From the NCBI GenBank assembly GCA_045653505.1, contig JAZOLZ010000007.1:4447-68446 (forward strand): 64,000 nt of DNA. Reading direction: 5' to 3'. This DNA comes from Eubacteriales bacterium (lineage in GTDB: Bacteria; Bacillota; Clostridia; Oscillospirales; CAG-272). The notes beneath the pieces are model-generated. The model was not told the origin of the DNA, did not search any database, and saw nothing but the letters and a program-made list of their open reading frames with translations. Shown here in pieces: positions 2,987-39,719 of the stretch. Both the position numbers and the translations under genes were made by a program. Each line of letters opens with the position of its first letter. The stretch's first letter is position 1.

Positions 2987-4210
2987 TTAAATTGCTGCAA
3001 CCAAACTCTTAACAATTCCCTCAAGAGACGACTCGGAACGTTTTTTAACAATATCCGAAAAGTCCATATCTAATGAAAGAAATGTCAATCCTTTTTGTTT
3101 TCTTAAAACATCTAATCCTTCCTTGCCATACATATATATGAGATTTGAAATATACGTATTTTTTGCTTGCTCACTATGGTAAAGAATCATAATTTCATCC
3201 ATTTTATTAAAGAGTTCCATAATGATATCTTTATCCGTGATGTCAAGAGAGTGTCCCATAACAATAAGTGAAGCAAATTGCTTAGGCTCTTTAATTTCTT
3301 TTAACCAATTCATATAGTCCAAATCGGTATTATATTGAGTTCGCTGAAAATACTTTTTAAATTTCACAAAAGATACGTCTATTGAAGTTACCTCATCGGA
3401 AGAATCAGGATTGATACCAATAATTATTTTATTCTTTATATCCCCGTGTAAATGAAAAATTTCTGAACTTAAATAGAATTGCTCGTAACTACTTGTATAG
3501 TTAAAACTAATAGCTTTGTCAATATGCGTAATTGCTGGACATTTTTTAAGTGTATGCTGTTTGATTTCTAATAAAGTTGGCTCTATAAAAGCTTCTAAAT
3601 ATAATCGTAATATTTTAGCCAAAATGTTTAATTCTTCAAGTAAATGTTCAATAATTTTTTCTTTATTTACAATAATTAACCCCGAACCTAAAGGATATTC
3701 CTTAGCAAAATCATCTATTACACTGTGTGAAGGACCACCAACAATACCCGAATTGTAATCTTTAAGAAAGAAATTAAAATTCTTAATTATGTATGTTTGT
3801 TCTTTATTAACTTCGTGAAAGCGAACTTTAACTGTGGCTTTTTTCAAAAAAGCCTTAAAGGCATCTAAAACATAGGCGATTTCCTTTTCAAAATCTATCC
3901 ATCCAACTCTATTATCAAATATCTTTAATAAATACTGAAACCATAAGTTAGTTTTTGATAAATCAATCAACTGCCCAACAATGCGCTCATCCAACACAGT
4001 GCCTTCATAAACTATTTTATGGGCATTATAACATTCGCCAATGAAAGCATCTTCATTTTGCAACCTGCTATCGCCAAAAACATCAGCAATGGTTTTCATT
4101 TCGGGCTTATAATTTTTAACAAGAAAATCTATTGTATGTAAAAAGTTGTCATATCTCGTTGGTAACTTATGATAAAGGTCAAAACCGTTGCCAAGTAAAA
4201 GTATATTCAT
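2987..4210 (-). CDS. AbiH-family abortive-infection protein
   Basis: The N-terminus MNILLLGNGFDLYHKLPTRYDNFL matches the hallmark start of the AbiH family (xIxGNGFDLxHxLxTxYxDF). The 407-aa length fits. Confidence 0.7.
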   Translation of the reverse strand: MNILLLGNGFDLYHKLPTRYDNFLHTIDFLVKNYKPEMKTIADVFGDSRLQNEDAFIGECYNAHKIVYEGTVLDERIVGQLIDLSKTNLWFQYLLKIFDNRVGWIDFEKEIAYVLDAFKAFLKKATVKVRFHEVNKEQTYIIKNFNFFLKDYNSGIVGGPSHSVIDDFAKEYPLGSGLIIVNKEKIIEHLLEELNILAKILRLYLEAFIEPTLLEIKQHTLKKCPAITHIDKAISFNYTSSYEQFYLSSEIFHLHGDIKNKIIIGINPDSSDEVTSIDVSFVKFKKYFQRTQYNTDLDYMNWLKEIKEPKQFASLIVMGHSLDITDKDIIMELFNKMDEIMILYHSEQAKNTYISNLIYMYGKEGLDVLRKQKGLTFLSLDMDFSDIVKKRSESSLEGIVKSLVAAI

Positions 4211-4275
4211 TCTTTCTCCTTTGTTCTTTTGTAAGTATTTCGGCGAGAGAGATTATTCTTCTATTTGCGAATATG

Positions 4276-7447: not shown

Positions 7448-8980
7448 TTATGCTTTTTTAGTAAGTAGTTTGTGTTTTGCTTTGTCCTTTAATGATTTAT
7501 AAAGGGTTGAGATAACAAGATAAAGGGAGAGAAAAATACAACTGCTAAAGACTATTTTTATTATAAGAAGTCCTACGGTTGTAGACTGGCCGTTTATCCT
7601 AAAAAGGGTATGCGAGGTATAGGCGCTTAGGATAGCGCAGATAAGCGGGATGAGAATACTGCCTATAGGATGTATCTCAAATTTTATCCTCTTTCTTAAC
7701 CTGATAAACGACAGAATAAAGTTATACGCCTCCATAACTATTATTACTACGGCGTAACCCATAATACCCATTTTTGGTAAAAGAATTATGACAAGAATGA
7801 CGGATAGAAGTGAGTCTGTGATGTTTACCCACATTGAATATACGTGCTCGCCTATGCCCTTTAATATCGCATCGGTGACGTGGTCAAGATACATAAGCGG
7901 GATTACAAGTGAAAGGACGGCTATGTAATAACCAACATCGTATGAGGAGTAGATTATATAACCGAGTTCCTCTGCAAAGAGAAATATGAATATAGACACT
8001 GCAATCGCAAACACAAGTGTGGTGTTAAGTGAGCGATCGGCAATACTTTTCATTCTATATTTATTTCCTCTGCCCTCTGCCTCAGCAAACTCGGGTACTA
8101 AAAGTCCCGAAAACGAGGAAAGAGGAGACATAGGATAAAGTATCAGCGGTAGCGCCATACCGTGCAAAATACCGTAAAGGCTGAGAGCCTCACTTGCGCT
8201 TTTGCCACTCTCTGCCACTTTTATCGGAATAAGGGTATGCTCTACGGCTAAGAGTGCTGAGCGTATATTGGCTGAGACGCTTAGGGGTACTGCCATACCG
8301 AATACGTCTTTAAGTTTACTCTTATCAGAGGGCGATTTTTTATAGAGAAGTAACCTATCTATAATAAACTGTAGGAAAAGAAGAAGAGCGCAGAAAATCT
8401 CACCGAGGGTATTGGAAAGACAGAGGTAGATGCAAGCCGTCTCTACGCTTAGTTTTTTTGATACAAAAAGTATGACAAAGACTATACGGAAGGCTTGAGA
8501 GATTACGTGAGTGGCAGAGTTGCGTTTTACCCGCCTTACTCCGACAAAATAGCCCGAGAGGACAGAGGAAATTGCCGCAGGAAAAAGTGAAAAGGCGAGG
8601 ATTATAAGCGGCTTTAATGCTCTTTGGTCTCTTAAAATATGTTCTGATATTACCGGAGAGAGGAATAAAAGAGCGGCGCTTGACGCCAAACTGAAAAGGG
8701 ATGCATAGAAAAAGCCTGCGCGTAAAACCGCTGTACTTGAGCCACTGCCCTCCCCTTCCTTTGCCACAAGGCGCGTCATAGTGAGACTTATACCGCCACC
8801 GGCAAATGTCAGTGCAAAATTGTAGACGGTCATTATTACGGTAAAAAGCCCTATTCCCTCTGCCCCGACTGCCTGCGTTACAAAGGCATTAAAGAAAAGA
8901 TTTACCGTGCGCATTCCTATTGCTACTGAGGATAACAGAATGCCGTTTTCAAAAAATCGCTGTTTATTTGACTTTACCAT
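7448..8980 (-). CDS. MOP-superfamily flippase (polysaccharide biosynthesis / SpoVB-like)
   Basis: A 510-aa polytopic membrane protein. The N-terminus (GILLSSVAIGMRTVNLFFNAFVTQAVGAEGIGLF) is typical of SpoVB/MurJ-like proteins. Confidence 0.65.
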   Translation of the reverse strand: MVKSNKQRFFENGILLSSVAIGMRTVNLFFNAFVTQAVGAEGIGLFTVIMTVYNFALTFAGGGISLTMTRLVAKEGEGSGSSTAVLRAGFFYASLFSLASSAALLFLSPVISEHILRDQRALKPLIILAFSLFPAAISSVLSGYFVGVRRVKRNSATHVISQAFRIVFVILFVSKKLSVETACIYLCLSNTLGEIFCALLLFLQFIIDRLLLYKKSPSDKSKLKDVFGMAVPLSVSANIRSALLAVEHTLIPIKVAESGKSASEALSLYGILHGMALPLILYPMSPLSSFSGLLVPEFAEAEGRGNKYRMKSIADRSLNTTLVFAIAVSIFIFLFAEELGYIIYSSYDVGYYIAVLSLVIPLMYLDHVTDAILKGIGEHVYSMWVNITDSLLSVILVIILLPKMGIMGYAVVIIVMEAYNFILSFIRLRKRIKFEIHPIGSILIPLICAILSAYTSHTLFRINGQSTTVGLLIIKIVFSSCIFLSLYLVISTLYKSLKDKAKHKLLTKKA

Positions 8981-15628: not shown

Positions 15629-15943
15629 TTATCTTTTTCTTTTATTGCTGTTGGCTACCCTAACTCTCGTAACCGTTTTACCTAAAAAGGTGTCACGGCT
15701 TGCAATAAGATTTAACTTTGCAAAATTGGAGAGCGGATATATCGGTGCTTTTAGTTTTGTTTTATACTTTATTATTATTGTACCTACGGTTATGCCGGAT
15801 ACAACAAGGCCGATTATTATGCCCCATATAACGCACAACTCTATGCTTGTTTCACCGGACAGCTCATCACCCGTAGCATAGACGTTCAAGGCAAACACAC
15901 TTAAAAGTGAAGTAAGAAGGATAAAGAATATAATTTTTTTCAT
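15629..15943 (-). CDS. small membrane protein with signal peptide
   Basis: The ATG at 15943 follows AGGAGG. MKKIIFFILLTSLLSVFALNVYA is a signal peptide, followed by one TM helix. It is the last gene of a three-gene minus-strand module. Confidence 0.5.
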   Translation of the reverse strand: MKKIIFFILLTSLLSVFALNVYATGDELSGETSIELCVIWGIIIGLVVSGITVGTIIIKYKTKLKAPIYPLSNFAKLNLIASRDTFLGKTVTRVRVANSNKRKR

Positions 15944-15953
15944 AGTACCCTCC

Positions 15954-17024
15954 TTACATAAACAGGAAATATCCAAGCAGTGATGCAAGGGTTGAAACAC
16001 CTGCAAAAAGGCCAAGGAACAGAGCCGTTATCTTTGGTATGCTTATCGGCAACTCACCGTAAACCTTGCCCGTATGACCGTTCATAGCATAGGTGAATAT
16101 CTTATCCTTCTTTTTACCCTTTTTACGGTAGGTAAGGATATAAAGAGGCATAAGCGCGTACTGCCATCCCGCACGGGTAAGGCGCATACTGAGATTCTCT
16201 GTCACAAGGGTGGTATAACCCGGCGCGGTATCGCGAAGAAGCGCCTCGGAATACTCACGCATCCTGCCCTGCACCTCAGGAGAAACCTCTTCACGCGAGA
16301 TATCACGTTTTTTAGCAACGTAGCCGGACATATAAGCCATATCAAAGTCCTTGTGAGCCTCGGGCGGATAGGGTAAAATCCCCTCAAGCATAGCCTTATC
16401 CTCACTTGATATTGCAGAGGTTACGATGTCCTCAAAGTGTATATCGCCCGAGCGATATATATCGTATCTTGATGTCTCGGTATAACGGTAATCACCCGAG
16501 CGCCATGATCGAACCTTTGTCGCTTTGGCACTAAGGTCACTGCTGGCATCGGCATCGGTTACCCAGAATGGGAAATAGATGCCCTGCATATTTTCTATCT
16601 GTTTTTTGGAAAAATAGTTTTTAGGTACGAATTTGTGCCTCTTTGCAAAGGATAAAAAGGCATCCTTTGCCTCATCACAGCCAAATTTAAAGGGAATGAT
16701 TTTATCAGGCTTAAGCATACCCGATACCTTGCTTGTCATAACGACGGGGTTATGACAATAGTAACAGAAGGTGGCCGCAGTATCCTTATCAGCGACAACC
16801 TCAGCGCCACAACTTTGGCAGATATATTCGTTTATGCTGTCGTTAAATTCCTCATTAGCCTTTGCCCTATGCGCCTCATCTGCCTGCCTTTTGCCTAAGG
16901 TCTCATCAAGCTCTGCCTTAGTAAAGTCACTAAGACAAAACTCACATGAGAATGCCTGCTTATCGGCATTAAAGGTCAAGGGAGCATCACAGTTTGGACA
17001 CTTATATGTAATTGTAGACTGCAA
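15954..17024 (-). CDS. double zinc-ribbon protein with C-terminal TM anchor
   Basis: YKCPNCDAPLTF...FSCEFC and YICQSCGAEV...FCYYC are zinc ribbons. The hydrophobic C-terminus is ITALFLGLFAGVSTLASLLGYFLF. Confidence 0.6.
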   Translation of the reverse strand: MQSTITYKCPNCDAPLTFNADKQAFSCEFCLSDFTKAELDETLGKRQADEAHRAKANEEFNDSINEYICQSCGAEVVADKDTAATFCYYCHNPVVMTSKVSGMLKPDKIIPFKFGCDEAKDAFLSFAKRHKFVPKNYFSKKQIENMQGIYFPFWVTDADASSDLSAKATKVRSWRSGDYRYTETSRYDIYRSGDIHFEDIVTSAISSEDKAMLEGILPYPPEAHKDFDMAYMSGYVAKKRDISREEVSPEVQGRMREYSEALLRDTAPGYTTLVTENLSMRLTRAGWQYALMPLYILTYRKKGKKKDKIFTYAMNGHTGKVYGELPISIPKITALFLGLFAGVSTLASLLGYFLFM

Positions 17025-17061
17025 GGATACACCCCCTTTTTATAAAAGGATAGTCTTGTGA

Positions 17062-18321
17062 TTATTTTTTATGACCGCACTCGGAGCAGAACTTTGCCTC
17101 GGGTGAATTGGACTTACCGCACTCGGTACAGAACCAAGCGGTATTTATAGGCTTTGCCTTACCGCACTCAGAGCAGAATTTGCCGCCATTTACAGCACCG
17201 CAGGAGCAGGTCCAACTTCCGTTATCTGCCTTTGCCTTACCGCACTCAGAACAGAACTTGCCGCTATTGGTTGCGCCGCAGGAACAGATCCAACCTGTCT
17301 TATCTGCTTTTTCTCTGTCCGACTTCATCTGCTGACGGTTAGTCTCTGACGCGCTCGCCATAAAACTGCCGCCTGCGCCCATGCCCATACCCATACCCAT
17401 AAATGCCTGGGCAGAGCCTTGGCTGTTGGAGCCGGCTGCTTCAAAGCCGCGTGCCATAGCGCCCTGTACGTAGCCCTCACGCACGCTTGCGTCACCGAGC
17501 ATAGCACCCTGATTACGCATATTGATAAGTTGTTTACTCTCATCATCGTAGGAAACAGATGCGATACCCACTGCGAGCACCTCGAAGCCACGCAGATTTT
17601 TCCACGTCTGGTCAAGTTCATCTGCCATATACTTAGAGAGTTCAGGTGACTTTGATGCTACGTAAGAGATACGCACGCCGTCTGCTGACATCTTGTTAAT
17701 TGATGCGCTTATCGCCTCAAGGAACTCGGAAAGATACTGCTCGTTTATTGAGTTAATATCTACTCTGTCCTCGTTTTTGGGAATAGCCTCACTGTAGAAC
17801 TTAATGGGGTCTGTAACCTTTATTGAATAGGTACCGTGAGCGCGCAAGAAAAGTTCTGCATTATAGAAGTTGTCAAAGTAGTTTACAGGAGTACGGGTGC
17901 CAAACTTGATACCCTTTATCTCCTGAAGATTGATGAAGTATGCCTTTTGCTTATACGAGGGCACACCACCGAATTTGACACGCGCAAATGCATCCTTTAA
18001 GGACTGGCCGAACTGACCTGCAAAGAGAGAGGGAGCGGATGAGTTATCTACCTTGTAGTAGCCCTCCTCTGCGGTAAAGTCCACTATCTTACCACCCTCA
18101 ACAAGGAGCATAAACTGATTAGGATATACGTGGATAACCGAGCCGTTTGAAATAGTATCATCTGTACCCTTGACGTTATTGTTGCGTTTGTCATTTGGAC
18201 GTACCTTTACGCCCTTGGTGAATACGGTAGTATCACTCATTTCATAGGCCTCAATAACCTCCTGCCACTGATCTGCAAGAGCACCGCCGATTGCCTGGAA
18301 AGTTGCCTTAATAATTCCCAT
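17062..18321 (-). CDS. SPFH-like (YdjI / virion-core-protein-like) protein with three tandem C-terminal zinc ribbons
   Basis: The N-terminus MGIIKATFQAIGGALADQWQEVIE is typical of the family and paralogous to 36888-38012. The C-terminus repeats WxCSCGAxNxGKFCSECGKAK three times. Confidence 0.7.
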   Translation of the reverse strand: MGIIKATFQAIGGALADQWQEVIEAYEMSDTTVFTKGVKVRPNDKRNNNVKGTDDTISNGSVIHVYPNQFMLLVEGGKIVDFTAEEGYYKVDNSSAPSLFAGQFGQSLKDAFARVKFGGVPSYKQKAYFINLQEIKGIKFGTRTPVNYFDNFYNAELFLRAHGTYSIKVTDPIKFYSEAIPKNEDRVDINSINEQYLSEFLEAISASINKMSADGVRISYVASKSPELSKYMADELDQTWKNLRGFEVLAVGIASVSYDDESKQLINMRNQGAMLGDASVREGYVQGAMARGFEAAGSNSQGSAQAFMGMGMGMGAGGSFMASASETNRQQMKSDREKADKTGWICSCGATNSGKFCSECGKAKADNGSWTCSCGAVNGGKFCSECGKAKPINTAWFCTECGKSNSPEAKFCSECGHKK

Positions 18322-34626: not shown

Positions 34627-35448
34627 ATGAAAAACGTATGTGTTATTACGGGTGGCGGAAGTGGAATGGGCTTTGCTGCCGCAAAATGTATGCCTAAGGA
34701 CAAAATAATATTGCTCACCGGCAGAACTTTATCAAAACTTGAAAAAGCAGTTGACGAACTTAAATCTCTTGGATACGAGGCTTATGCAAAAACTTGTGAC
34801 ACCTCCAAAAGAGAGCAGGTGCGCGAACTTGCAGAATATGCCGCAAGCCTTGGCGTGATTAAAAACGTAATAAATTCTGCAGGACTTTCTCCTGCTATGG
34901 CTGAACCTGAGATGCTTGTAAGAGTAAACGCTTTAGGCACAGTATATATCAACGAGGAATTCTCTAAACTTATGGGGGCAGGAAGTGTTATTGTTGACAT
35001 TTCATCAAACTCTGCGTATATACTCCCCGGCTTCCTCGCCAGCAAAAAGACCTTTGCCCTTGCAGACAAGGACGAGGAAAAGTTTATCAAAAAAATGCTT
35101 TCTTTACCCAGCAAATTGAAGGGTTACAAGGCATCCGGCCTTGCGTACGGACTTTCTAAAAAGTTTGTAATCTGGTATGCTGCAAAGTCGGCATACGATC
35201 TTGGCCCTAAGGGTATCAGAGTATGCTCATTAAGCCCCGGACTTATTGCAACCGATATGGGTGCGCTTGAGGCTGAGGAGGGCGCTAGCCTCCTTGATAC
35301 AACTGCAGAAAGACGTATGGGCAAGCCCGAGGAGTTGGGTTATGCTATCGCAACGGTTGCCGATGAAAGAAACGGTTATCTTGCGGGCGTTGATGTGCTG
35401 GTTGACGGCGGAAGCGTTGTTGGTAAAAAATTTATAAAGAAAAAGTAA
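34627..35448 (+). CDS. SDR-family oxidoreductase
   Basis: VCVITGGGSGMGFAAAK (TGxxxGxG) and YGLSK (YxxxK). The ATG at 34627 follows AAGGAGA. Confidence 0.85.
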   Translation: MKNVCVITGGGSGMGFAAAKCMPKDKIILLTGRTLSKLEKAVDELKSLGYEAYAKTCDTSKREQVRELAEYAASLGVIKNVINSAGLSPAMAEPEMLVRVNALGTVYINEEFSKLMGAGSVIVDISSNSAYILPGFLASKKTFALADKDEEKFIKKMLSLPSKLKGYKASGLAYGLSKKFVIWYAAKSAYDLGPKGIRVCSLSPGLIATDMGALEAEEGASLLDTTAERRMGKPEELGYAIATVADERNGYLAGVDVLVDGGSVVGKKFIKKK

Positions 35449-35466
35449 TATTTTGATAAAAATCAC

Positions 35467-35517
35467 ATCAGCCCAATGAGCAATCGGCAAAATGTACGCC
35501 TCGCTCATTGGGCTGAT
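35467..35517 (+). terminator. long hairpin after the SDR gene (no clear T tract)
   Basis: atcagcccaatgagc...gctcattgggctgat forms a 15-bp perfect stem. Confidence 0.4.
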
Positions 35518-35639
35518 ATTAATATGGAGGTATTTTAAGCCTTTAAGATTTAAATCCATTATTTACGCACACCAATCCCTGTTTTGCAGAAAAATATCCG
35601 GAATCAAAAAATTAATGCAGAGAAAAACAATACTCTGTA

Positions 35640-35668
35640 TTGACTTTTTACTTTTGTTTTGTTATAAT
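35640..35668 (+). promoter_or_regulatory. sigma-A promoter for tRNA-Pro
   Basis: TTGACT, a 17-nt spacer, then TATAAT, ending 18 nt before the tRNA. Confidence 0.55.
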
Positions 35669-35686
35669 AGTCTGCGTTAAGTATTT

Positions 35687-35762
35687 CGGGATGTAGCGCA
35701 GTTGGTAGCGCGCCTGCTTTGGGAGCAGGATGTCGCAGGTTCAAGTCCTGTCATTCCGACCA
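35687..35762 (+). tRNA. tRNA-Pro (anticodon TGG)
   Basis: CGGGATG acceptor pairs with CATTCCG. D arm GCGCAGTTGGTAGCGC. Anticodon arm CCTGC-TTTGGGA-GCAGG. T arm GCAGG-TTCAAGT-CCTGT. Encoded ACCA end. Confidence 0.9.
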
Positions 35763-35767
35763 AAAAA

Positions 35768-35805
35768 CCAAAGGGAGTAGATTTTTTACTCCCTTTGGTT
35801 TTTTT
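35768..35805 (+). terminator. rho-independent terminator of tRNA-Pro
   Basis: ccaaagggagta-gattttt-tactccctttgg is followed by ttttttt. Confidence 0.8.
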
Positions 35806-35990
35806 GGTTTGTATGACAAGGGTGCAGAACCTGCCTCCTCGTCAGTATGCAGTATTGAACTTTGTAAATCTCGGCTGACGAGGATTAAATTTACTCCTTG
35901 TTTTGCTTGCAAAATTGATGCGTATGTCGCATCAAGGGTAAATTGGGGGCGTTGGTGCTTTGATATACTGTGCCAACGCCTGTTCAACTT

Positions 35991-36012
35991 TCCTGTCATT
36001 CCGACCAAAAAA
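35991..36012 (+). repeat. direct copy of the last 16 nt of tRNA-Pro plus the A tract
   Basis: tcctgtcattccgaccaaaaaa is identical to 35746-35767. Weaker similarity extends into the T loop (ctgttcaac vs aggttcaag). Confidence 0.75.
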
Positions 36013-36046
36013 GACTGTGATTTTGATACATTTCGCTAAAAAGCTA

Positions 36047-36075
36047 TTGTATTTTTCTCCAAAACACTGTATAAT
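36047..36075 (+). promoter_or_regulatory. candidate sigma-A promoter of the PH-like/SPFH operon
   Basis: TTGTAT, a 17-nt spacer, then TATAAT. Confidence 0.45.
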
Positions 36076-36257
36076 AGTGTTGCCAAACTAACTTAATAAT
36101 TGTGATTTGTGGTATTTTTCTATCTTCAGGGATAACTATACCCTTTTTTAGCCACACTTATCTTATGAATTTGATAAAATGCAAATTCCATCTAGTAAGT
36201 GTGGTAATACCCATTTCACATAGAGTTAGTTTGGCGACTATCGGAGTTTGCGTTTTG
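36076..36257 (+). promoter_or_regulatory. structured 5' leader (nested long-range helices), class unknown
   Basis: 12-bp perfect pairing gccaaactaact (36082-36093) with agttagtttggc (36224-36235). It encloses a 9-bp pairing ccacactta (36152-36160) with taagtgtgg (36196-36204). Confidence 0.45.
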
Positions 36258-36290
36258 GTGCGGTTGCTTCGGTAGCCGCACTTTTTGATT
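36258..36290 (+). terminator. intrinsic terminator inside the leader, just upstream of the RBS
   Basis: gtgcggttgc-ttcg-gtagccgcac followed by tttttgatttt. GGAGG lies at 36293 and the ATG at 36304. Confidence 0.6.
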
Positions 36291-36303
36291 TTGGAGGTAA
36301 AAT

Positions 36304-36876
36304 ATGGAGGATTTAAAATTAGCATCCAACGAGGGCATTATTATTCAAAGCACAGACGTTTTATCAGGCACTCGCTTAATGGACGGTTATACCGATGACC
36401 TTATTCTAACTAACTTAAATATCATCTTAATAAAAAGAGGTGTATTTGGAAAGAAAAAAAGTGAGCAAAGATTCCCTGTTTCTGACATCAAAATAATAAA
36501 CAACAAGCCCCAAGTAATGATGAGCAAAATGAATTCTCGCAACGTCGATCAACTGCAAATAGATTTCAAAAACGGAATCCAACATTTTGAGTTTTCCAAT
36601 AAAAACAAAAAAGAAATTGCAAAGTGGATAAAATCTATTCACGAATTATTGAATTGCAAAGAAGACGGCACAACTATGGACGTAGTAACCGATTCATTAA
36701 AAAAGGGTGTAGATTCAATCAAACAAATTTTTGGCATAAAAACAGATACAAAAAACACCAACGATCCACAAACTCAATTTTTAACTGCAAGATGTCACGG
36801 ATGTAAAGCTCCTTTAAAAGGAACAAGAAAACAAATAGTTAGGTGTTCATACTGTGATACCGAGCACACATTTTAA
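36304..36876 (+). CDS. PH/GRAM-like domain protein with C-terminal zinc ribbon
   Basis: The pattern DDLILTNLNIILIKRG...FPVSDIKII...LQIDFKNGIQHFEFSNKNKKEIAKWIKSI resembles bacterial PH-like domains (inference). The C-terminus CHGCKAPL...CSYCDTEH is a zinc ribbon. Confidence 0.55.
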   Translation: MEDLKLASNEGIIIQSTDVLSGTRLMDGYTDDLILTNLNIILIKRGVFGKKKSEQRFPVSDIKIINNKPQVMMSKMNSRNVDQLQIDFKNGIQHFEFSNKNKKEIAKWIKSIHELLNCKEDGTTMDVVTDSLKKGVDSIKQIFGIKTDTKNTNDPQTQFLTARCHGCKAPLKGTRKQIVRCSYCDTEHTF

Positions 36877-36887
36877 CGGAGGTTACT

Positions 36888-38012
36888 ATGGGACTAATCA
36901 AATCATTTGCGGGTGCAATAAGCGGCACCTTAGCCGATCAATGGAAAGACATAATAACTTCAGATGTCTTTGATACCCACACTTTAATTTCTCCTGGAAT
37001 TAGAAAAACGACCGATAACGACAGAGGAAATGATTATAAAGGTTCTTCCGGCGTAATCTCTAATGGATCAAAAATTTTTGTTCCGGAAAACACCGCCGCA
37101 TTTATATTTAGCCAATCAGGTATAGAAGAAATCATCACTGAACCAGGCGGATACATTTATAAAAATGGAGACTCAAGCATCTTTAATGGTGATGGCTTTA
37201 AAAATTCAATTTTTAAGGAATTAGGAAAGAGATTTCAGTACGGCGGTATCACGGATACCAAAAAAGAAATTTGCTTTGTTAATCTAAGGGAAATAAGGGA
37301 TATAAAGTTTGGAACAAGAGGTGCGCAATTATATAACGATATGTTTTACAAATGTGACCTTGAATTATTTGCATTTGGATCATTTACTGTAAAAGTTATT
37401 GACCCCGTAAAGGTCGTTAAAAATTTCGTGCCCGCTGGCACAAACCATTATTCATTTGATGATCCATCTGCAAGAGAGCAGCTAATATCGGATTTTTTAC
37501 AATCATTTATTGTTGCCATTAATTCTCTTTCAAGCGAGTACAGAATCTCTCAAATCCCTTCACAATCAAATGCACTATCAATACAAATTTCCAAAGACTC
37601 TTTAAACGCAGGGTCGTGGGCAAATAGATTTGGCTTCGAAGTCGTTAAGGTGTCGATTGAAAATATAGAATTATCTGATGAATCTAAGGAATTAGTTAAA
37701 AAATATAATGAAAACAGAATGAACTTATCTGCTTATGAAGGCATTTCACAAAAAGCCTCTAATATTGCAGCTCAACAAAAAATTGCAGAAGGTGTAAAAA
37801 ATAATGGCTTTGGTGATATCGGGGGAATGATGTTTGCCACAGGAATGATTCAAGGACTAAATCCCCAAAATGCATCACAAATTGATCAAGGTAAAAAAAT
37901 GTCTTTCAATGAACAAATTGAAACACTAACAAAATTGAAGGGGTTATTAGATGCAGGTATTTTAACTCAAGAAGAATTTGATACTAAGAAAAAAGAAATT
38001 ATGGGGTTATAA
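36888..38012 (+). CDS. SPFH-like (YdjI / virion-core-protein-like) protein with C-terminal SHOCT domain
   Basis: MGLIKSFAGAISGTLADQWKDIITS parallels MGIIKATFQAIGGALADQWQEVIE of 17062-18321. The tail IETLTKLKGLLDAGILTQEEFDTKKKEIMGL is a SHOCT motif. The gene starts 12 nt after the upstream stop. Confidence 0.7.
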   Translation: MGLIKSFAGAISGTLADQWKDIITSDVFDTHTLISPGIRKTTDNDRGNDYKGSSGVISNGSKIFVPENTAAFIFSQSGIEEIITEPGGYIYKNGDSSIFNGDGFKNSIFKELGKRFQYGGITDTKKEICFVNLREIRDIKFGTRGAQLYNDMFYKCDLELFAFGSFTVKVIDPVKVVKNFVPAGTNHYSFDDPSAREQLISDFLQSFIVAINSLSSEYRISQIPSQSNALSIQISKDSLNAGSWANRFGFEVVKVSIENIELSDESKELVKKYNENRMNLSAYEGISQKASNIAAQQKIAEGVKNNGFGDIGGMMFATGMIQGLNPQNASQIDQGKKMSFNEQIETLTKLKGLLDAGILTQEEFDTKKKEIMGL

Positions 38013-38122
38013 TAGTAAAAAAATACAATGTCGCTTTTTTGCTGTAACCAAATTCAAATGGGAGCAAAACTATTCTCCCAAATACACCCATTATAAAATG
38101 GTATCAAGATTTTAGATTACTC

Positions 38123-38164
38123 ACCAAAAAAACAAAAGGAGTAGATTTTTTTACCTTGTTTTTT
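38123..38164 (+). repeat. degenerate copy of the tRNA-Pro 3' tip plus its terminator
   Basis: accaaaaaaacaaaaggagtagatttttttaccttgtttttt versus 35760-35805 accaaaaaaccaaagggagtagattttttactccctttggttttttt. Confidence 0.55.
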
Positions 38165-38432
38165 CAATGTTTTGTTGTTTGTGAGCAGTTTTTCTGTTCT
38201 TTTTTATACTGATAAATTAAGATGTACCGATATCGCAAATCTAATCTGTAAAAAAGTAAATATTTTTGCAAAAAGGTATGGATTTTTTTACAAAAAGGTA
38301 GTATAATATATAGCCGATGAAAAAGAGCTCAACCATAAAGATATCTATGAGAGCATATATAATACCCTCACATCACATCTGAATGATTCTACTCTCACGT
38401 AATCAAAATACTTTTGAAAGAAGGCGTATTCT

Positions 38433-39719
38433 ATGACTCAAACAGCCAGTATCTTTTTGAGTTTGTCCATCGCTTTACTCGCAGGTCTGCTTTTGTCAAG
38501 GCTTGCCAAGCTTGTAAAGCTCCCCGCAGTTACCGCATATCTGATCTCCGGCGTTTTGATCGGGCCTTTCGTGCTCGGATTGCTGAACATTCCGGGAATC
38601 GGTATCACGGCAGACCAAATCGAAGGCTTCGGGCTTATCTCCGATCTTGCCCTTGGCTTTATAGCATTTTCTATGGGAAATGAGTTCAGAATTTCTCAGC
38701 TGAAGAAGATCGGTAAGCAAGCAACCGTAATCGGAGTACTTCAAGCATTGATCACTACCATAGTGGTTGACGTTGCCTTGATCTCGCTGCATTTCGCAAT
38801 GCCTGACACACTCTCCATCCCGGCCGCCATCGTTCTTGCATCGGTTGCGACAGCAACGGCTCCTGCCGCTACGCTGATGGTTATCAAGCAGTACAAAGCA
38901 AAGGGACCGGTTACAGACGTTCTCCTTCCCGTCGTTGCACTTGACGATGCAGTCGGTCTTGTGATTTTTGCCATTTCCTTCGGTGTGGCAAGATCATTGG
39001 GATCAGCAGGCGTAAGTCCGCTTGCTATTGTTCTTGAGCCGCTGATTGAGATTGTTTTGTCGCTGCTGCTCGGCTTTGTGATGGGATTGCTCTTTACACT
39101 CTGCGAGAAGTATTTCCATTCGCGCTCCAAGCGTATGGCAGTTTCGGTTACTTTCATTATGCTGACCGTTGCTATCTCCAACTTGAGGTTTGAAGTTAAC
39201 GGCATACATATTTGCTTTTCATCATTACTTGCCTGCATGATGCTCGGTACAGTATTCTGTAACATCTGCGAGGTTTCTGAGGAACTGATGGAAAGAGCCG
39301 ACAGATGGACTACCCCGGTGCTGATTTTGTTCTTTGTAATCAGCGGCGCGGAGCTTGATCTCTTGGTATTCGCGCAGTGGACTGTCGTGCTCGTTGGTGT
39401 CGTTTACATCATTTCACGTTCTCTAGGTAAATATTACGGCGCAAATATCAGCGCAAGAATGACTAAATCCGACCCCAACATTGTAAAATACCTCGGTATC
39501 ACCTTGCTTCCCCAGGCGGGCGTTGCACTTGGTATGGCCAACAAAGCTATCGAGCTTGGTTACGATGGAGCAATCGTTCATAACATAACGTTATTTGCCG
39601 TCCTGATTTATGAGATCGTCGGACCATTCCTTACAAAAATTGCCCTTACCAAAGCCGGCGATATCAAGGAGGAAGGTCGCACAAGCGCACGTGAAGAACA
39701 CCTTGCCAAAAAGCACTAA
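38433..39719 (+). CDS. cation:proton antiporter (CPA2/Kef-type)
   Basis: LSIALLAGLLLSRLAKLVKLPAVTAYLISGVLIGPFVLGLL is typical of the Na+/H+ exchanger family. About 12 TM helices. Confidence 0.85.
   Translation: MTQTASIFLSLSIALLAGLLLSRLAKLVKLPAVTAYLISGVLIGPFVLGLLNIPGIGITADQIEGFGLISDLALGFIAFSMGNEFRISQLKKIGKQATVIGVLQALITTIVVDVALISLHFAMPDTLSIPAAIVLASVATATAPAATLMVIKQYKAKGPVTDVLLPVVALDDAVGLVIFAISFGVARSLGSAGVSPLAIVLEPLIEIVLSLLLGFVMGLLFTLCEKYFHSRSKRMAVSVTFIMLTVAISNLRFEVNGIHICFSSLLACMMLGTVFCNICEVSEELMERADRWTTPVLILFFVISGAELDLLVFAQWTVVLVGVVYIISRSLGKYYGANISARMTKSDPNIVKYLGITLLPQAGVALGMANKAIELGYDGAIVHNITLFAVLIYEIVGPFLTKIALTKAGDIKEEGRTSAREEHLAKKH

What the first reader, a model, noticed from the sequence alone, without database searches (positions are those of the whole stretch)
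36304..38012. Two-gene operon: PH-like/zinc-ribbon protein plus SPFH-like protein with SHOCT tail (candidate undescribed system)
The genes are 12 nt apart and AT-rich. They are bracketed by tRNA-derived repeats and controlled by a terminator-containing leader, which are hallmarks of an acquired, tightly regulated module. Gene 2 is a paralogue of the core-genome SPFH-like gene at 17062-18321 (near-identical N-terminal motif MGxIKxxxxAIxGxLADQW). However, it has swapped the triple zinc-ribbon tail for a SHOCT oligomerisation/membrane-association motif. Gene 1 replaces the TM-anchored double zinc-ribbon partner with a soluble PH/GRAM-like domain plus a single zinc ribbon. I know of no named defence or stress system with this composition. 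Membrane-scaffold (SPFH) proteins combined with a lipid/ligand-binding PH-like sensor would fit a membrane-integrity or abortive-infection-type function.
Basis: inference. Interest (0 to 1): 0.7.

Follow-up and report, generated by a model that had tools for sequence, protein, structure and literature searches.

The report
Acquired PH–zinc-ribbon plus SPFH gene pair
A small horizontally acquired cassette next to a tRNA gene encodes a conserved but uncharacterised pair of proteins, a lipid- or ligand-binding-type adaptor and a membrane-scaffold protein, and it sits behind a previously undescribed structured RNA leader that also fronts many other swappable cell-envelope genes.

Summary
Two co-directional genes lie 11 nt apart: 36304-36876 (190 aa) and 36888-38012 (374 aa). 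Their GC is 34% against 42% for the window.

- **Gene 2** is a Band_7_1 SPFH protein with a SHOCT tail. It is 36% identical to the core YdjI-like gene at 17062-18321.
- **Gene 1** has no Pfam family. It models confidently as a PH fold plus a C-terminal zinc ribbon resembling the first ribbon of YdjG. Neither protein has a transmembrane segment.
- **Conservation:** the pair is a sporadic unit in Firmicutes, Actinomycetota and Mycoplasmatota (16 of 20 genome loci).
- **Acquisition:** a 2.1-kb unit (36035-38124) is shared with another contig, where it follows tRNA-Leu. Here it is flanked by repeats of the tRNA-Pro 3' end.
- **Neighbours:** about a quarter to a third of contexts carry restriction-modification (RM), SIR2-HerA or candidate defence genes. 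No known defence model matches the pair, and it is virtually absent from plasmids and phages.

Best reading: a TM-less, pspA-unlinked variant of the YdjG/YdjI (SamG/SamI) membrane-scaffold module. A defence role is a live rival.

The leader (36081-36295) belongs to a strongly covarying RNA family not in Rfam. That family precedes replaceable envelope-gene cargo.

The parts
35687..35762 (+). tRNA-Pro(UGG), the integration landmark
   Evidence: ARAGORN; Rfam tRNA 69.8 bits
35762..35804 (+). Perfect intrinsic terminator hairpin after the tRNA (T1)
   Evidence: Terminator scan, 20-pair stem; 18-nt perfect inverted repeat I4
35991..36030 (+). Second copy of the tRNA-Pro 3' end (22 nt exact, 35991-36012), followed by half of a tRNA terminator. 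This stretch is homologous to the tRNA-Leu 3' flank of L006. It forms the left bracket of the cassette.
   Evidence: Direct repeat D4; blastn 85% over 40 nt to L006 1230-1269
36047..36075 (+). Promoter-like site: TTGTAT, 17 nt, TG-TATAAT. It lies 6-7 nt before the first base of the leader helix P1.
   Evidence: Read from the sequence. The same layout (TTGACT/TTGAAA-like hexamer, about 17 nt, TGnTATAAT) occurs in the other family members. The simple scan instead listed a weaker overlapping site at 36023-36050. Not tested experimentally.
36081..36235 (+). Structured domain of the 5' leader RNA, with helices P1-P5
   Evidence: Covariance model hit at 191.9 bits. 93.9% of cells are paired and 36 of 48 pairs show compensatory changes across 27 distinct copies. 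z = -7.3.
36236..36295 (+). Conserved linker (GACUAUCGGAGUUUGCG), intrinsic terminator (stem 36257-36282, UUCG loop) and U-tract
   Evidence: Alternative pairing of the linker with the P5 3' strand.
36296..36300 (+). Ribosome-binding site GGAGG for gene 1
   Evidence: Sequence
36304..36876 (+). Gene 1: soluble basic protein with a PH-like domain (1-115), a linker helix (131-142) and a C-terminal CxxC...CxxC zinc ribbon (159-189). The family has no Pfam model.
36888..38012 (+). Gene 2: Band_7_1 SPFH protein with an N-terminal beta region, an SPFH core (about 125-280), a low-complexity linker (283-337) and a SHOCT bihelical tail (340-372). No TM segment.
38013..38124 (+). 3' UTR conserved with L006. 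This is the right end of the shared 2.1-kb unit (...TTTTAGATTACTCAC).
   Evidence: blastn: window 36035-38124 = L006 1609-3723 at 75%
38123..38165 (+). Third, degenerate copy of the tRNA-Pro end plus terminator (ACCAAAAAAACAAAAGGAGTAGATTTTTTT...). This is the right bracket of the cassette.
   Evidence: Direct repeat D2, 29 nt at 93%; sequence
17062..18321 (-). Core paralogue of gene 2: YdjI/SamI-like Band_7_1 protein with C-terminal zinc ribbons
15954..17024 (-). Core partner: YdjG/SamG-like protein with two N-terminal zinc ribbons and a C-terminal TM. Its first ribbon resembles the ribbon of gene 1.
   Evidence: The B. subtilis YdjG N-terminus MIISYKCPNC comes from the primer in PMC8581546.

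Best explanation
The locus is a horizontally acquired cassette of about 2.1 kb at the 3' end of tRNA-Pro. It encodes a two-protein, TM-less variant of the YdjG/YdjI (SamG/SamI)-type SPFH module.

Shown:
- Gene 2 is a Band_7_1 SPFH protein with a flexible linker and a SHOCT tail.
- Gene 1 is a basic PH-fold protein ending in a zinc ribbon of the YdjG type.
- The two genes travel together as a unit across three phyla.
- In this lineage the operon sits behind a promoter, a 155-nt structured RNA and an intrinsic terminator.

Inferred:
- Like other SPFH proteins, gene 2 assembles into large rings or cages on the cytoplasmic face of the membrane. In place of the YdjG/YdjH membrane anchors, the SHOCT tail and the partner's PH domain provide peripheral attachment or cue recognition.
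- Gene 1 docks on the SPFH oligomer through its zinc ribbon. This is the one element kept in all partner variants.
- Gene 1 reads a membrane lipid or a peptide cue through its PH domain.
- The complex marks or stabilises perturbed membrane patches, giving an envelope-stress or membrane-integrity function.
- Expression is kept off by the leader terminator until an unknown signal allows read-through. That signal is shared with other envelope-gene cassettes.
For: Paralogy to a core YdjI-like/YdjG-like pair in the same window comes.

In B. subtilis, YdjI is a soluble SPFH protein recruited to the membrane by YdjG/YdjH (PMC8581546; bioRxiv 10.64898/2026.02.06.704340).

The gene 1 ribbon aligns to the first ribbon of the YdjG-like core protein (hhalign prob 75%, E=2.4e-5). 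It also aligns to the ribbon of an otherwise unrelated partner encoded downstream of a gene 2 homologue in Neobacillus (prob 88%).

Gene adjacency is strict. A gene 2 homologue starts 11-36 nt after the gene 1 homologue in 16 of 20 genome loci and in every metagenomic context looked up. A gene 1 homologue also pairs with a Zn-ribbon-tailed Band_7_1 protein (L033). The PH-ZnR protein is therefore a general Band_7_1 partner.

Neither protein has a TM segment, and gene 1 is net basic (+4 in the PH domain, +4 in the ribbon). SHOCT was predicted to tether domains to the inner membrane leaflet (PMC11237479).

Other cargo behind the same leader RNA is envelope-related: an ECF sigma factor, lipoproteins, DUF6056, a GT14 enzyme and Zn-ribbon/TM proteins.
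Against: - No experiment exists on any member of this pair.
- No pspA gene was seen next to the pair in any context, so the PspA link of YdjI does not carry over.
- Membrane association is inferred only. SHOCT did not oligomerise in the one test published, and its function is unknown (PMC3581485).
- The ribbon similarity to YdjG is short and of modest probability.
- Sporadic distribution, horizontal transfer and frequent RM or defence neighbours fit an accessory or defence role at least as well as a housekeeping stress role.
- Gene 1 diverges much faster than gene 2 (54% against 87% identity with L006; 28-42% against 48-61% elsewhere). That pattern is typical of a sensor under diversifying pressure.
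Confidence: 0.45

Rival explanations
1. The pair is a two-gene anti-phage system, acting by abortive infection or superinfection exclusion. The fast-evolving PH-ZnR protein senses a phage product or phage-induced membrane damage. The SPFH-SHOCT oligomer then executes a membrane-level response.
For: The pair is sporadic and horizontally transferred. The identical gene 1 protein occurs in two different contexts in Clostridium disporicum, one beside an integrase. The cassette sits at tRNA genes in the window, L006 and L009.

Defence or candidate-defence neighbours within about 4 genes:
- Type I RM in L007, L021 and L030.
- SIR2-HerA plus Type ISP in L020.
- MTase plus a DndB/DpdB-like gene in L001-5.
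- PDC-S25 in L007.
- PDC-S46 (E=8e-254) plus a serine recombinase in L060.

Gene 1 diverges faster than gene 2. The leader family also occurs in viral contigs as a moron-like unit.
Against: Neither protein matches any PADLOC model. Only about 6-9 of roughly 24 distinct contexts have defence genes nearby, a level expected for any island-borne accessory gene. Many contexts are housekeeping.

Gene 1 relatives occur in 1 of 50,697 phage records, in 0 of 72,556 plasmids, and in none of the IMG/VR hits. The pair has no recognisable effector domain such as a nuclease, NADase, pore or protease.
Confidence: 0.3
2. The pair is an HflK/C- or QmcA/NfeD-like regulatory cage. The SPFH oligomer encloses and regulates an unlinked membrane protease, channel or transporter, and gene 1 acts as a substrate or cargo adaptor.
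For: The best structural matches of the gene 2 model are cage-forming SPFH complexes that regulate FtsH, channels or partners: HflK/C-FtsH, stomatin and QmcA-YbbJ.
Against: No protease, NfeD or channel gene is conserved next to the pair. Gene 2 lacks the TM anchor of those families.
Confidence: 0.12
3. The cassette is a decaying hitch-hiker: a redundant paralogue of the core YdjI-like system with no function of its own in this genome.
For: No integrase is present. The att-like repeats are degenerate. A core paralogous pair exists in the same window.
Against: Both ORFs are intact. All invariant family residues are kept: four Cys, E10 and the LT motif. The RBS, promoter and leader are intact and conserved with L006. 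Gene 2 is 87% identical to its nearest relatives.
Confidence: 0.05

Closest known systems
Bacillus subtilis PspA-YdjG-YdjH-YdjI (SamGHI) module
   Same: Both have a Band_7_1 SPFH protein without a TM segment, encoded next to a zinc-ribbon partner. The ribbon motif is shared: K-C-x-x-C-x-A-P-L ... C-x-[YF]-C. The window itself carries a YdjI-like/YdjG-like pair that is paralogous to this one.
   Different: There is no pspA and no YdjH (TPM) gene. The partner is soluble, with a PH domain in place of the NTF2-like domain plus TM. The SPFH tail is SHOCT rather than zinc ribbons. Gene order is reversed, with the partner first. The pair is accessory and horizontally transferred rather than a sigma-W stress operon.
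Band_7_1 + SHOCT proteins (Pfam PF13421 + PF09851), annotated 'SPFH domain-containing protein' or COG 'membrane protease subunit, stomatin/prohibitin family'
   Same: Gene 2 is a full-length member at 60-88% identity to hundreds of clusters. This is the commonest SHOCT architecture (PMC3581485).
   Different: In the papers I searched and read, the obligatory PH-ZnR partner gene and the operon as a unit are not described. The family has no experimental characterisation.
Cage-forming SPFH complexes (HflK/C-FtsH, stomatin, QmcA-YbbJ/NfeD, flotillin, prohibitin)
   Same: The SPFH core and following helices of the model match these folds at E=3e-8 to 1e-5.
   Different: No TM or hairpin anchor, no NfeD or protease partner, and an extra N-terminal beta region (about residues 20-95).
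PH-like domains: bacterial PH (bPH, e.g. 3dcx/DUF1696) and the ESCRT-II Vps36 GLUE domain
   Same: Predicted seven-strand sandwich capped by a C-terminal helix. Vps36 also combines a PH domain with zinc fingers and binds membrane lipid.
   Different: Sequence scores are below every Pfam PH cutoff. The resemblance to Vps36 is fold-level only and homology is not implied. Ligand-binding residues were not tested.
Integrase-less integrative elements at tRNA 3' ends (CIME-like remnants, genomic islets)
   Same: Flanking imperfect direct repeats of the tRNA 3' end, lower GC, and the same unit downstream of a different tRNA in another genome.
   Different: Only 2.1-2.4 kb with no recombinase. The repeats include the tRNA terminator, which fits recombination between homologous tRNA flanks as well as it fits site-specific integration.
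Terminator-type riboswitches and leader attenuators
   Same: Promoter, then a conserved multi-helix domain, then an intrinsic terminator, then the RBS of the first gene. The RNA stands in front of many different genes.
   Different: No Rfam 15 family matches. No ligand is known, and no obvious antiterminator overlaps the terminator. The downstream cargo is heterogeneous and replaceable.

Membership tests
SPFH / Band_7_1 (PF13421) | Profile match above the curated cutoff | tested here: met
   50.6 bits against a cutoff of 24, E=2.5e-13
SPFH / Band_7_1 (PF13421) | SPFH alpha/beta fold followed by long helices | tested here: met
   Model core pLDDT 85-93. Foldseek hits to HflK/C, stomatin, prohibitin and flotillin at E down to 2.9e-8.
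SPFH / Band_7_1 (PF13421) | Assembly into large membrane-associated oligomers | not testable with these tools
   No multimer prediction or experiment was available
SHOCT (PF09851) | C-terminal bihelical motif above the cutoff | tested here: met
   35.5 bits against a cutoff of 27, residues 346-372. The model shows two helices, 340-355 and 361-372.
PH-like fold (bPH/PH/GRAM clan) | Sequence match to a PH family above the cutoff | tested here: not met
   bPH_1 16.6, bPH_3 15.8, PH 14.7 and PH_2 16.0 bits, all below cutoffs of 22-30
PH-like fold (bPH/PH/GRAM clan) | Seven-stranded beta sandwich closed by a C-terminal helix | tested here: met
   Predicted model only: strands 12-97 and helix 101-115 at pLDDT above 90. 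The top 50 PDB matches are PH, GLUE or GRAM domains.
PH-like fold (bPH/PH/GRAM clan) | Lipid or peptide ligand binding | not testable with these tools
   The only indication is a net basic charge of +4
YdjG/YdjH/YdjI (SamGHI)-PspA system | Band_7_1 SPFH protein lacking a TM segment | tested here: met
YdjG/YdjH/YdjI (SamGHI)-PspA system | Zinc-ribbon partner of YdjG type | tested here: inconclusive
   Only the ribbon aligns (hhalign prob 75%, 31 columns). The rest of the protein is a PH domain with no TM segment.
YdjG/YdjH/YdjI (SamGHI)-PspA system | pspA and a YdjH (TPM-domain membrane protein) in the operon | tested here: not met
   The operon has two genes only. No PspA_IM30 or TPM gene appears in any neighbourhood looked up.
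Known or candidate anti-phage defence systems (PADLOC-DB 2.0) | Match of either protein to a defence model | tested here: not met
   Gene 2 has no hit. Gene 1 has one spurious weak REase_II hit at 18.5 bits.
Known or candidate anti-phage defence systems (PADLOC-DB 2.0) | Consistent location in defence islands | tested here: inconclusive
   Clear defence neighbours in about 6 of roughly 24 contexts, and possible ones in 3 more. No background was computed.
tRNA-targeted integrative element | Direct repeats of the tRNA 3' end flanking foreign DNA | tested here: met
   22-nt exact and 29-nt 93% repeats. GC 34% against 42%. The shared unit ends exactly at the repeat.
tRNA-targeted integrative element | Integrase or recombinase within the element | tested here: not met
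   Only the two genes lie between the repeats
Any Rfam 15 RNA family (for the leader) | Covariance-model match | tested here: not met
   Nothing at E<=1 over 35400-38500. Only chance-level hits at E<=10 over 36040-36310.

The most novel reading that the evidence does not exclude
The PH-ZnR/SPFH-SHOCT pair is a new membrane-level anti-phage or membrane-damage-sensing system of Gram-positive bacteria. In addition, its leader is the founding example of a new class of cis-regulatory RNA, riboswitch-like or protein-dependent. That RNA marks hot spots where envelope or defence cargo genes are exchanged, often beside tRNA or tmRNA genes and occasionally in phages.
Probability: 0.25. Interest if true: 0.8.

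Novelty: new variant of a known kind. Interest (0 to 1): 0.6.

Why it matters
SPFH scaffolds are universal, yet only a few bacterial ones (HflK/C, flotillins, YdjI) have a known role. This pair defines a widespread, unannotated partner family: at least 450 clusters at 50% identity, with no Pfam model. It also suggests that a specific zinc ribbon is the common handle by which different adaptors engage Band_7_1 proteins, whether those adaptors are TM-anchored like YdjG or soluble with a PH domain. That idea is directly testable.

A PH-domain adaptor would also be one of the few cases pointing to a defined role for a bacterial PH-like domain. If the defence reading is right, the pair would add a membrane-scaffold mechanism to the anti-phage repertoire.

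Separately, the leader RNA is a strongly supported structured RNA absent from Rfam. It precedes interchangeable cargo and could be a new regulatory class.

Tried and rejected
- **Sequence searches for gene 1** against Pfam, NCBIfam, PADLOC, PHROGs and PDB gave no significant family. PDB sequence search for gene 2 found nothing.
- **Organism identification failed.** The window's proteins are singletons with no names, and exact look-ups of the window proteins returned no contig.
- **Viral searches.** The search for related loci in viral contigs failed with the deep alignment and found no relative with the shallow one. The one 'phage' record with the pair is an unverified 9-kb virome scaffold without annotation.
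- **Structure-aware MAFFT** was not installed, so a covariance model was used instead.
- **A mini-ORF (GTG-CGG-TTR-CTT-CGG-TAG, 'MRLLR') inside the leader terminator** was considered as a translational attenuator. It was rejected because a 1-nt insertion in L006, L040 and L058 destroys it (sequence).
- **attC-like (integron) reading of the leader** was considered because of GCCAAAC...GTTTGGC. It was rejected: the core sites do not fit RYYYAAC/GTTRRRY, and the element has its own promoter, conserved loops and terminator.
- **A literature search for the leader sequence** returned only unrelated primers.
- **A second copy of the leader** in the window was not found.
Full report
**1. What is in the sequence**

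They lie on the same strand, 11 nt apart, each with its own start. The segment is 34% GC in a 41.7% GC window.

Upstream lies tRNA-Pro(UGG) at 35687-35762, followed by a perfect terminator hairpin. The last 22 nt of the tRNA region (TCCTGTCATTCCGACCAAAAAA) recur exactly at 35991-36012. The tRNA end plus the left half of its terminator recurs at 93% over 29 nt at 38123-38151.

Between the second repeat and g1 lie four elements:
- a promoter-like site (TTGTAT, 17 nt, TG-TATAAT, 36047-36075);
- a long structured region;
- an 11-bp GC-rich hairpin with a UUCG loop and a U-run (36257-36295);
- the RBS GGAGG.

The flanking genes are ordinary: a short-chain dehydrogenase on one side and a Na+/H+ exchanger on the other.

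**2. The proteins**

g2 matches Pfam Band_7_1 and SHOCT above their curated cutoffs. Its model has a confident SPFH core and matches HflK/C, stomatin, prohibitin, erlin, flotillin and QmcA. After the core come a disordered low-complexity linker and the two SHOCT helices.

g2 is 36% identical (E=9e-49) over its first 290 residues to the core gene at 17062-18321, which ends in zinc ribbons instead. That core gene is followed by a protein with two N-terminal zinc ribbons and a C-terminal TM helix, and then by a small TM protein. This is the YdjI/YdjG arrangement of B. subtilis (PMC11237479; PMC8581546).

g1 has no family in Pfam, NCBIfam, PADLOC or PHROGs, only a cluster of sub-threshold PH hits. 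All database relatives are "hypothetical protein" with no Pfam domain.

A profile search over 1.84 billion representatives finds 755 relatives at E<=1e-3 and 457 at E<=1e-10, almost all 180-210 aa. With a 121-sequence alignment, the AlphaFold model reaches pLDDT 84.9. It shows seven strands and a capping helix (1-115), a poorly ordered linker with one helix, and a four-Cys ribbon (159-189). Foldseek returns PH, GLUE and GRAM domains almost exclusively, led by Vps36 and a bacterial PH domain.

Neither protein has a TM segment, and g1 is basic. The invariant family positions are E10, the L35-T36 motif and the four cysteines.

**3. Is the pair a unit?**

Yes. In 16 of 20 species-representative genome loci a g2 homologue begins 11-36 nt after the g1 homologue. 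The same holds in the metagenomic and isolate contexts looked up:
- a Bifidobacterium-like contig;
- L006 and L027;
- Clostridium disporicum;
- a multi-species Clostridium protein seen on at least 59 contigs.

Hosts span Firmicutes (Streptococcus, Enterococcus, Clostridium, Lachnospiraceae), Actinomycetota (Actinomyces, Varibaculum, Trueperella, Microbacterium) and Mycoplasmatota.

g2 is far better conserved than g1: 48-61% against 28-42% in the same loci, and 87% against 54% with L006.

Three variants are informative:
- A g1 homologue is paired with a Zn-ribbon-tailed Band_7_1 protein (L033).
- A g2 homologue in Neobacillus is followed, not preceded, by a 198-aa protein that shares only the C-terminal ribbon with g1 (hhalign prob 88%).
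- Solo g1 homologues occur in a Lachnospiraceae MAG and in Paucisalibacillus.

The g1 ribbon also aligns with the first ribbon of the window's YdjG-like protein (prob 75%). The ribbon is thus the constant feature of Band_7_1 partners, and I infer that it is the docking element.

**4. Acquisition**

Window 36035-38124 aligns at 75% with L006 1609-3723. The aligned stretch covers promoter, leader, g1, g2 and 112 nt of 3' UTR. It ends at the very base where the window's third tRNA-flank repeat begins.

In L006 the unit lies downstream of tRNA-Leu. The 40 nt at window 35991-36030 match the L006 tRNA 3' end plus half of its terminator. A third locus has tRNA-Ala 325 nt upstream of the pair.

No recombinase lies between the repeats. 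The cassette is therefore either a remnant or trans-mobilised integrative islet, or it was moved by recombination between conserved tRNA flanks. I could not retrieve an empty site.

**5. Neighbourhoods**

I scanned 126 neighbouring proteins from 17 loci and then examined selected ones individually. Clear defence genes lie within about four genes in roughly six contexts:
- Type I RM in L007, L021 and L030;
- SIR2-HerA plus Type ISP in L020;
- MTase plus a DndB/DpdB-like gene in L001;
- candidate systems PDC-S25 in L007 and PDC-S46 in L060.

Possible defence or mobile genes lie near three more: a Schlafen-like helicase, RmuC/GIY-YIG/SNF2, and T5orf172. Elsewhere the neighbours are housekeeping genes such as LeuRS, guaA, MatE and peptidases.

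In the Clostridium locus the region just upstream of the pair differs between strains, while the downstream side is constant.

g1 relatives occur in 1 of 50,697 phage records (an unverified virome scaffold) and in no PLSDB plasmid. g2 homologues of this subtype are equally rare there. This is a moderate island or defence association, not a decisive one.

**6. The leader**

The region 36081-36295 folds at -71.6 kcal/mol, z = -7.3, and is conserved in L006. A 32-base pattern from its 3' part found 25 metagenome contigs and 3 viral contigs. Only one of these has a g1-like gene nearby.

In the others the element stands 11-46 nt before unrelated ORFs: lipoproteins, small TM proteins, Zn-ribbon/TM proteins, an ECF sigma factor, DUF6056, a GT14 enzyme and an LRR protein.

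Each copy folds on its own into the same P1-P2-(P3)-P4-P5 shape. On a covariance-model alignment of 27 distinct copies:
- 93.9% of cells pair, against 72% shuffled and 35-46% slid;
- 36 of 48 pairs show compensatory changes;
- all 11 pairs of P4 covary.

That alignment was fitted to the model, which inflates such counts somewhat. However, P1 covariation is also seen on the plain MAFFT alignment.

Rfam 15 has no match.

The conserved linker GGAGUUUGC can pair with the 3' strand of P5. All ten one-sided substitutions preserve that pairing. The linker was fixed by my search pattern, so this remains a lead only.

At one locus, related contigs share the upstream flank and leader at 94% up to about 10 nt past the terminator. 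They then carry unrelated cargo and regain homology downstream. Copies also lie just after a tmRNA gene, a tRNA array and a tRNA-Leu.

The leader is absent upstream of the pair in all other lineages. It is therefore a lineage-specific control or exchange element, not an intrinsic part of the system.

**7. Interpretation**

The best-supported reading is a TM-less, pspA-unlinked variant of the YdjG/YdjI module. An SPFH oligomer carries a SHOCT tail, and a PH+ribbon adaptor accompanies it. The complex acts at the cytoplasmic face of the membrane in response to envelope perturbation.

The anatomy is shown. The interaction, membrane binding and physiological role are inferred by analogy to YdjI, a soluble SPFH protein recruited by YdjG/H and needed for PspA foci.

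The main rival is an anti-phage function. It is favoured by sporadic distribution, island context and the fast-evolving partner. It is disfavoured by the lack of any effector domain, the lack of defence-model matches and the near absence from mobile replicons.

The module as a pair appears undescribed in the resources searched. I rate it a new variant of a known kind.

Noticed in passing
window 36081-36295; L006 1654-1876; L035-L059; L068-L070: The operon's leader belongs to a structured RNA family of about 215 nt, with a 155-nt five-helix domain, a conserved linker and a terminator. Covariation is very strong and there is no Rfam match. The RNA stands directly in front of heterogeneous, mostly envelope-related genes: lipoproteins, an ECF sigma factor, DUF6056, a GT14 enzyme and Zn-ribbon/TM proteins.
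   Followed up: yes
L038 1-556 vs L039 112-671; L038 3687-3785 vs L039 2077-2175; L038 vs L051: At the same locus in related contigs, the upstream flank plus leader is conserved up to about 10 nt past the terminator. The cargo behind it is unrelated, and homology resumes downstream. The leader therefore marks a cargo-replacement hot spot.
   Followed up: partly
L035 (tmRNA 2002-2362, leader from 2558); L037 (tRNA array 3469-4240, leader from 4459); L044 (tRNA-Leu 8837-8922, leader 8474-8274, minus strand): Leader-plus-cargo units often lie within 180-350 nt downstream of tRNA or tmRNA genes, as they do in the window and L006. This suggests insertion or exchange at tRNA flanks.
   Followed up: partly
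L069 2766-3777 (IMG/VR contig): A diverged copy of the leader precedes a Zn-ribbon/TM protein, next to an ORF that by eye resembles a phage terminase small subunit (not verified by any search). The unit looks moron-like within a viral contig of much higher GC.
   Followed up: no
window 36206-36214 with 36243-36251 (alignment A6 columns 126-134 with 203-211): The invariant linker GGAGUUUGC is complementary to the 3' strand of helix P5 (GCAAAUUCC). Every natural substitution in P5 keeps this alternative pairing, and two of them break P5 itself. This may be a switch, but the linker was fixed by the search pattern.
   Followed up: partly
window 15629-18321 (minus strand): A core YdjI-like (SPFH plus three Zn ribbons), YdjG-like (two Zn ribbons plus TM) and small TM protein operon has no pspA gene adjacent. 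The upstream neighbour is a MatE transporter.
   Followed up: partly
L033 8001-9911; L065 7001-8725: Two partner variants were seen. In L033 a g1 homologue pairs with a Zn-ribbon-tailed Band_7_1 protein. In Neobacillus (L065) a g2 homologue is followed by a 198-aa protein that shares only the C-terminal ribbon with g1. The ribbon looks like the universal Band_7_1 handle.
   Followed up: partly
L019 7998-8558 and 10394-12577; L008 7069-8564: Solo g1 homologues without an SPFH neighbour occur in two places. In Paucisalibacillus one lies near a 727-aa protein with a GTPase P-loop that looks dynamin-like by eye (not tested). In a Lachnospiraceae MAG one lies just after a 252-aa protein of unknown family.
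   Followed up: no
window 35805-35990: A 186-nt stretch between the tRNA terminator and the second tRNA-end repeat has no assigned function. Its last roughly 30 nt look like a degenerate tRNA T-arm and acceptor remnant, possibly left by an earlier insertion.
   Followed up: no
L060-L064 705-6030: In a Clostridium species, the region immediately upstream of the pair varies between strains. Some carry a serine recombinase, the candidate defence gene PDC-S46 and an unknown gene; others carry unrelated genes. Mrr fragments lie downstream.
   Followed up: partly
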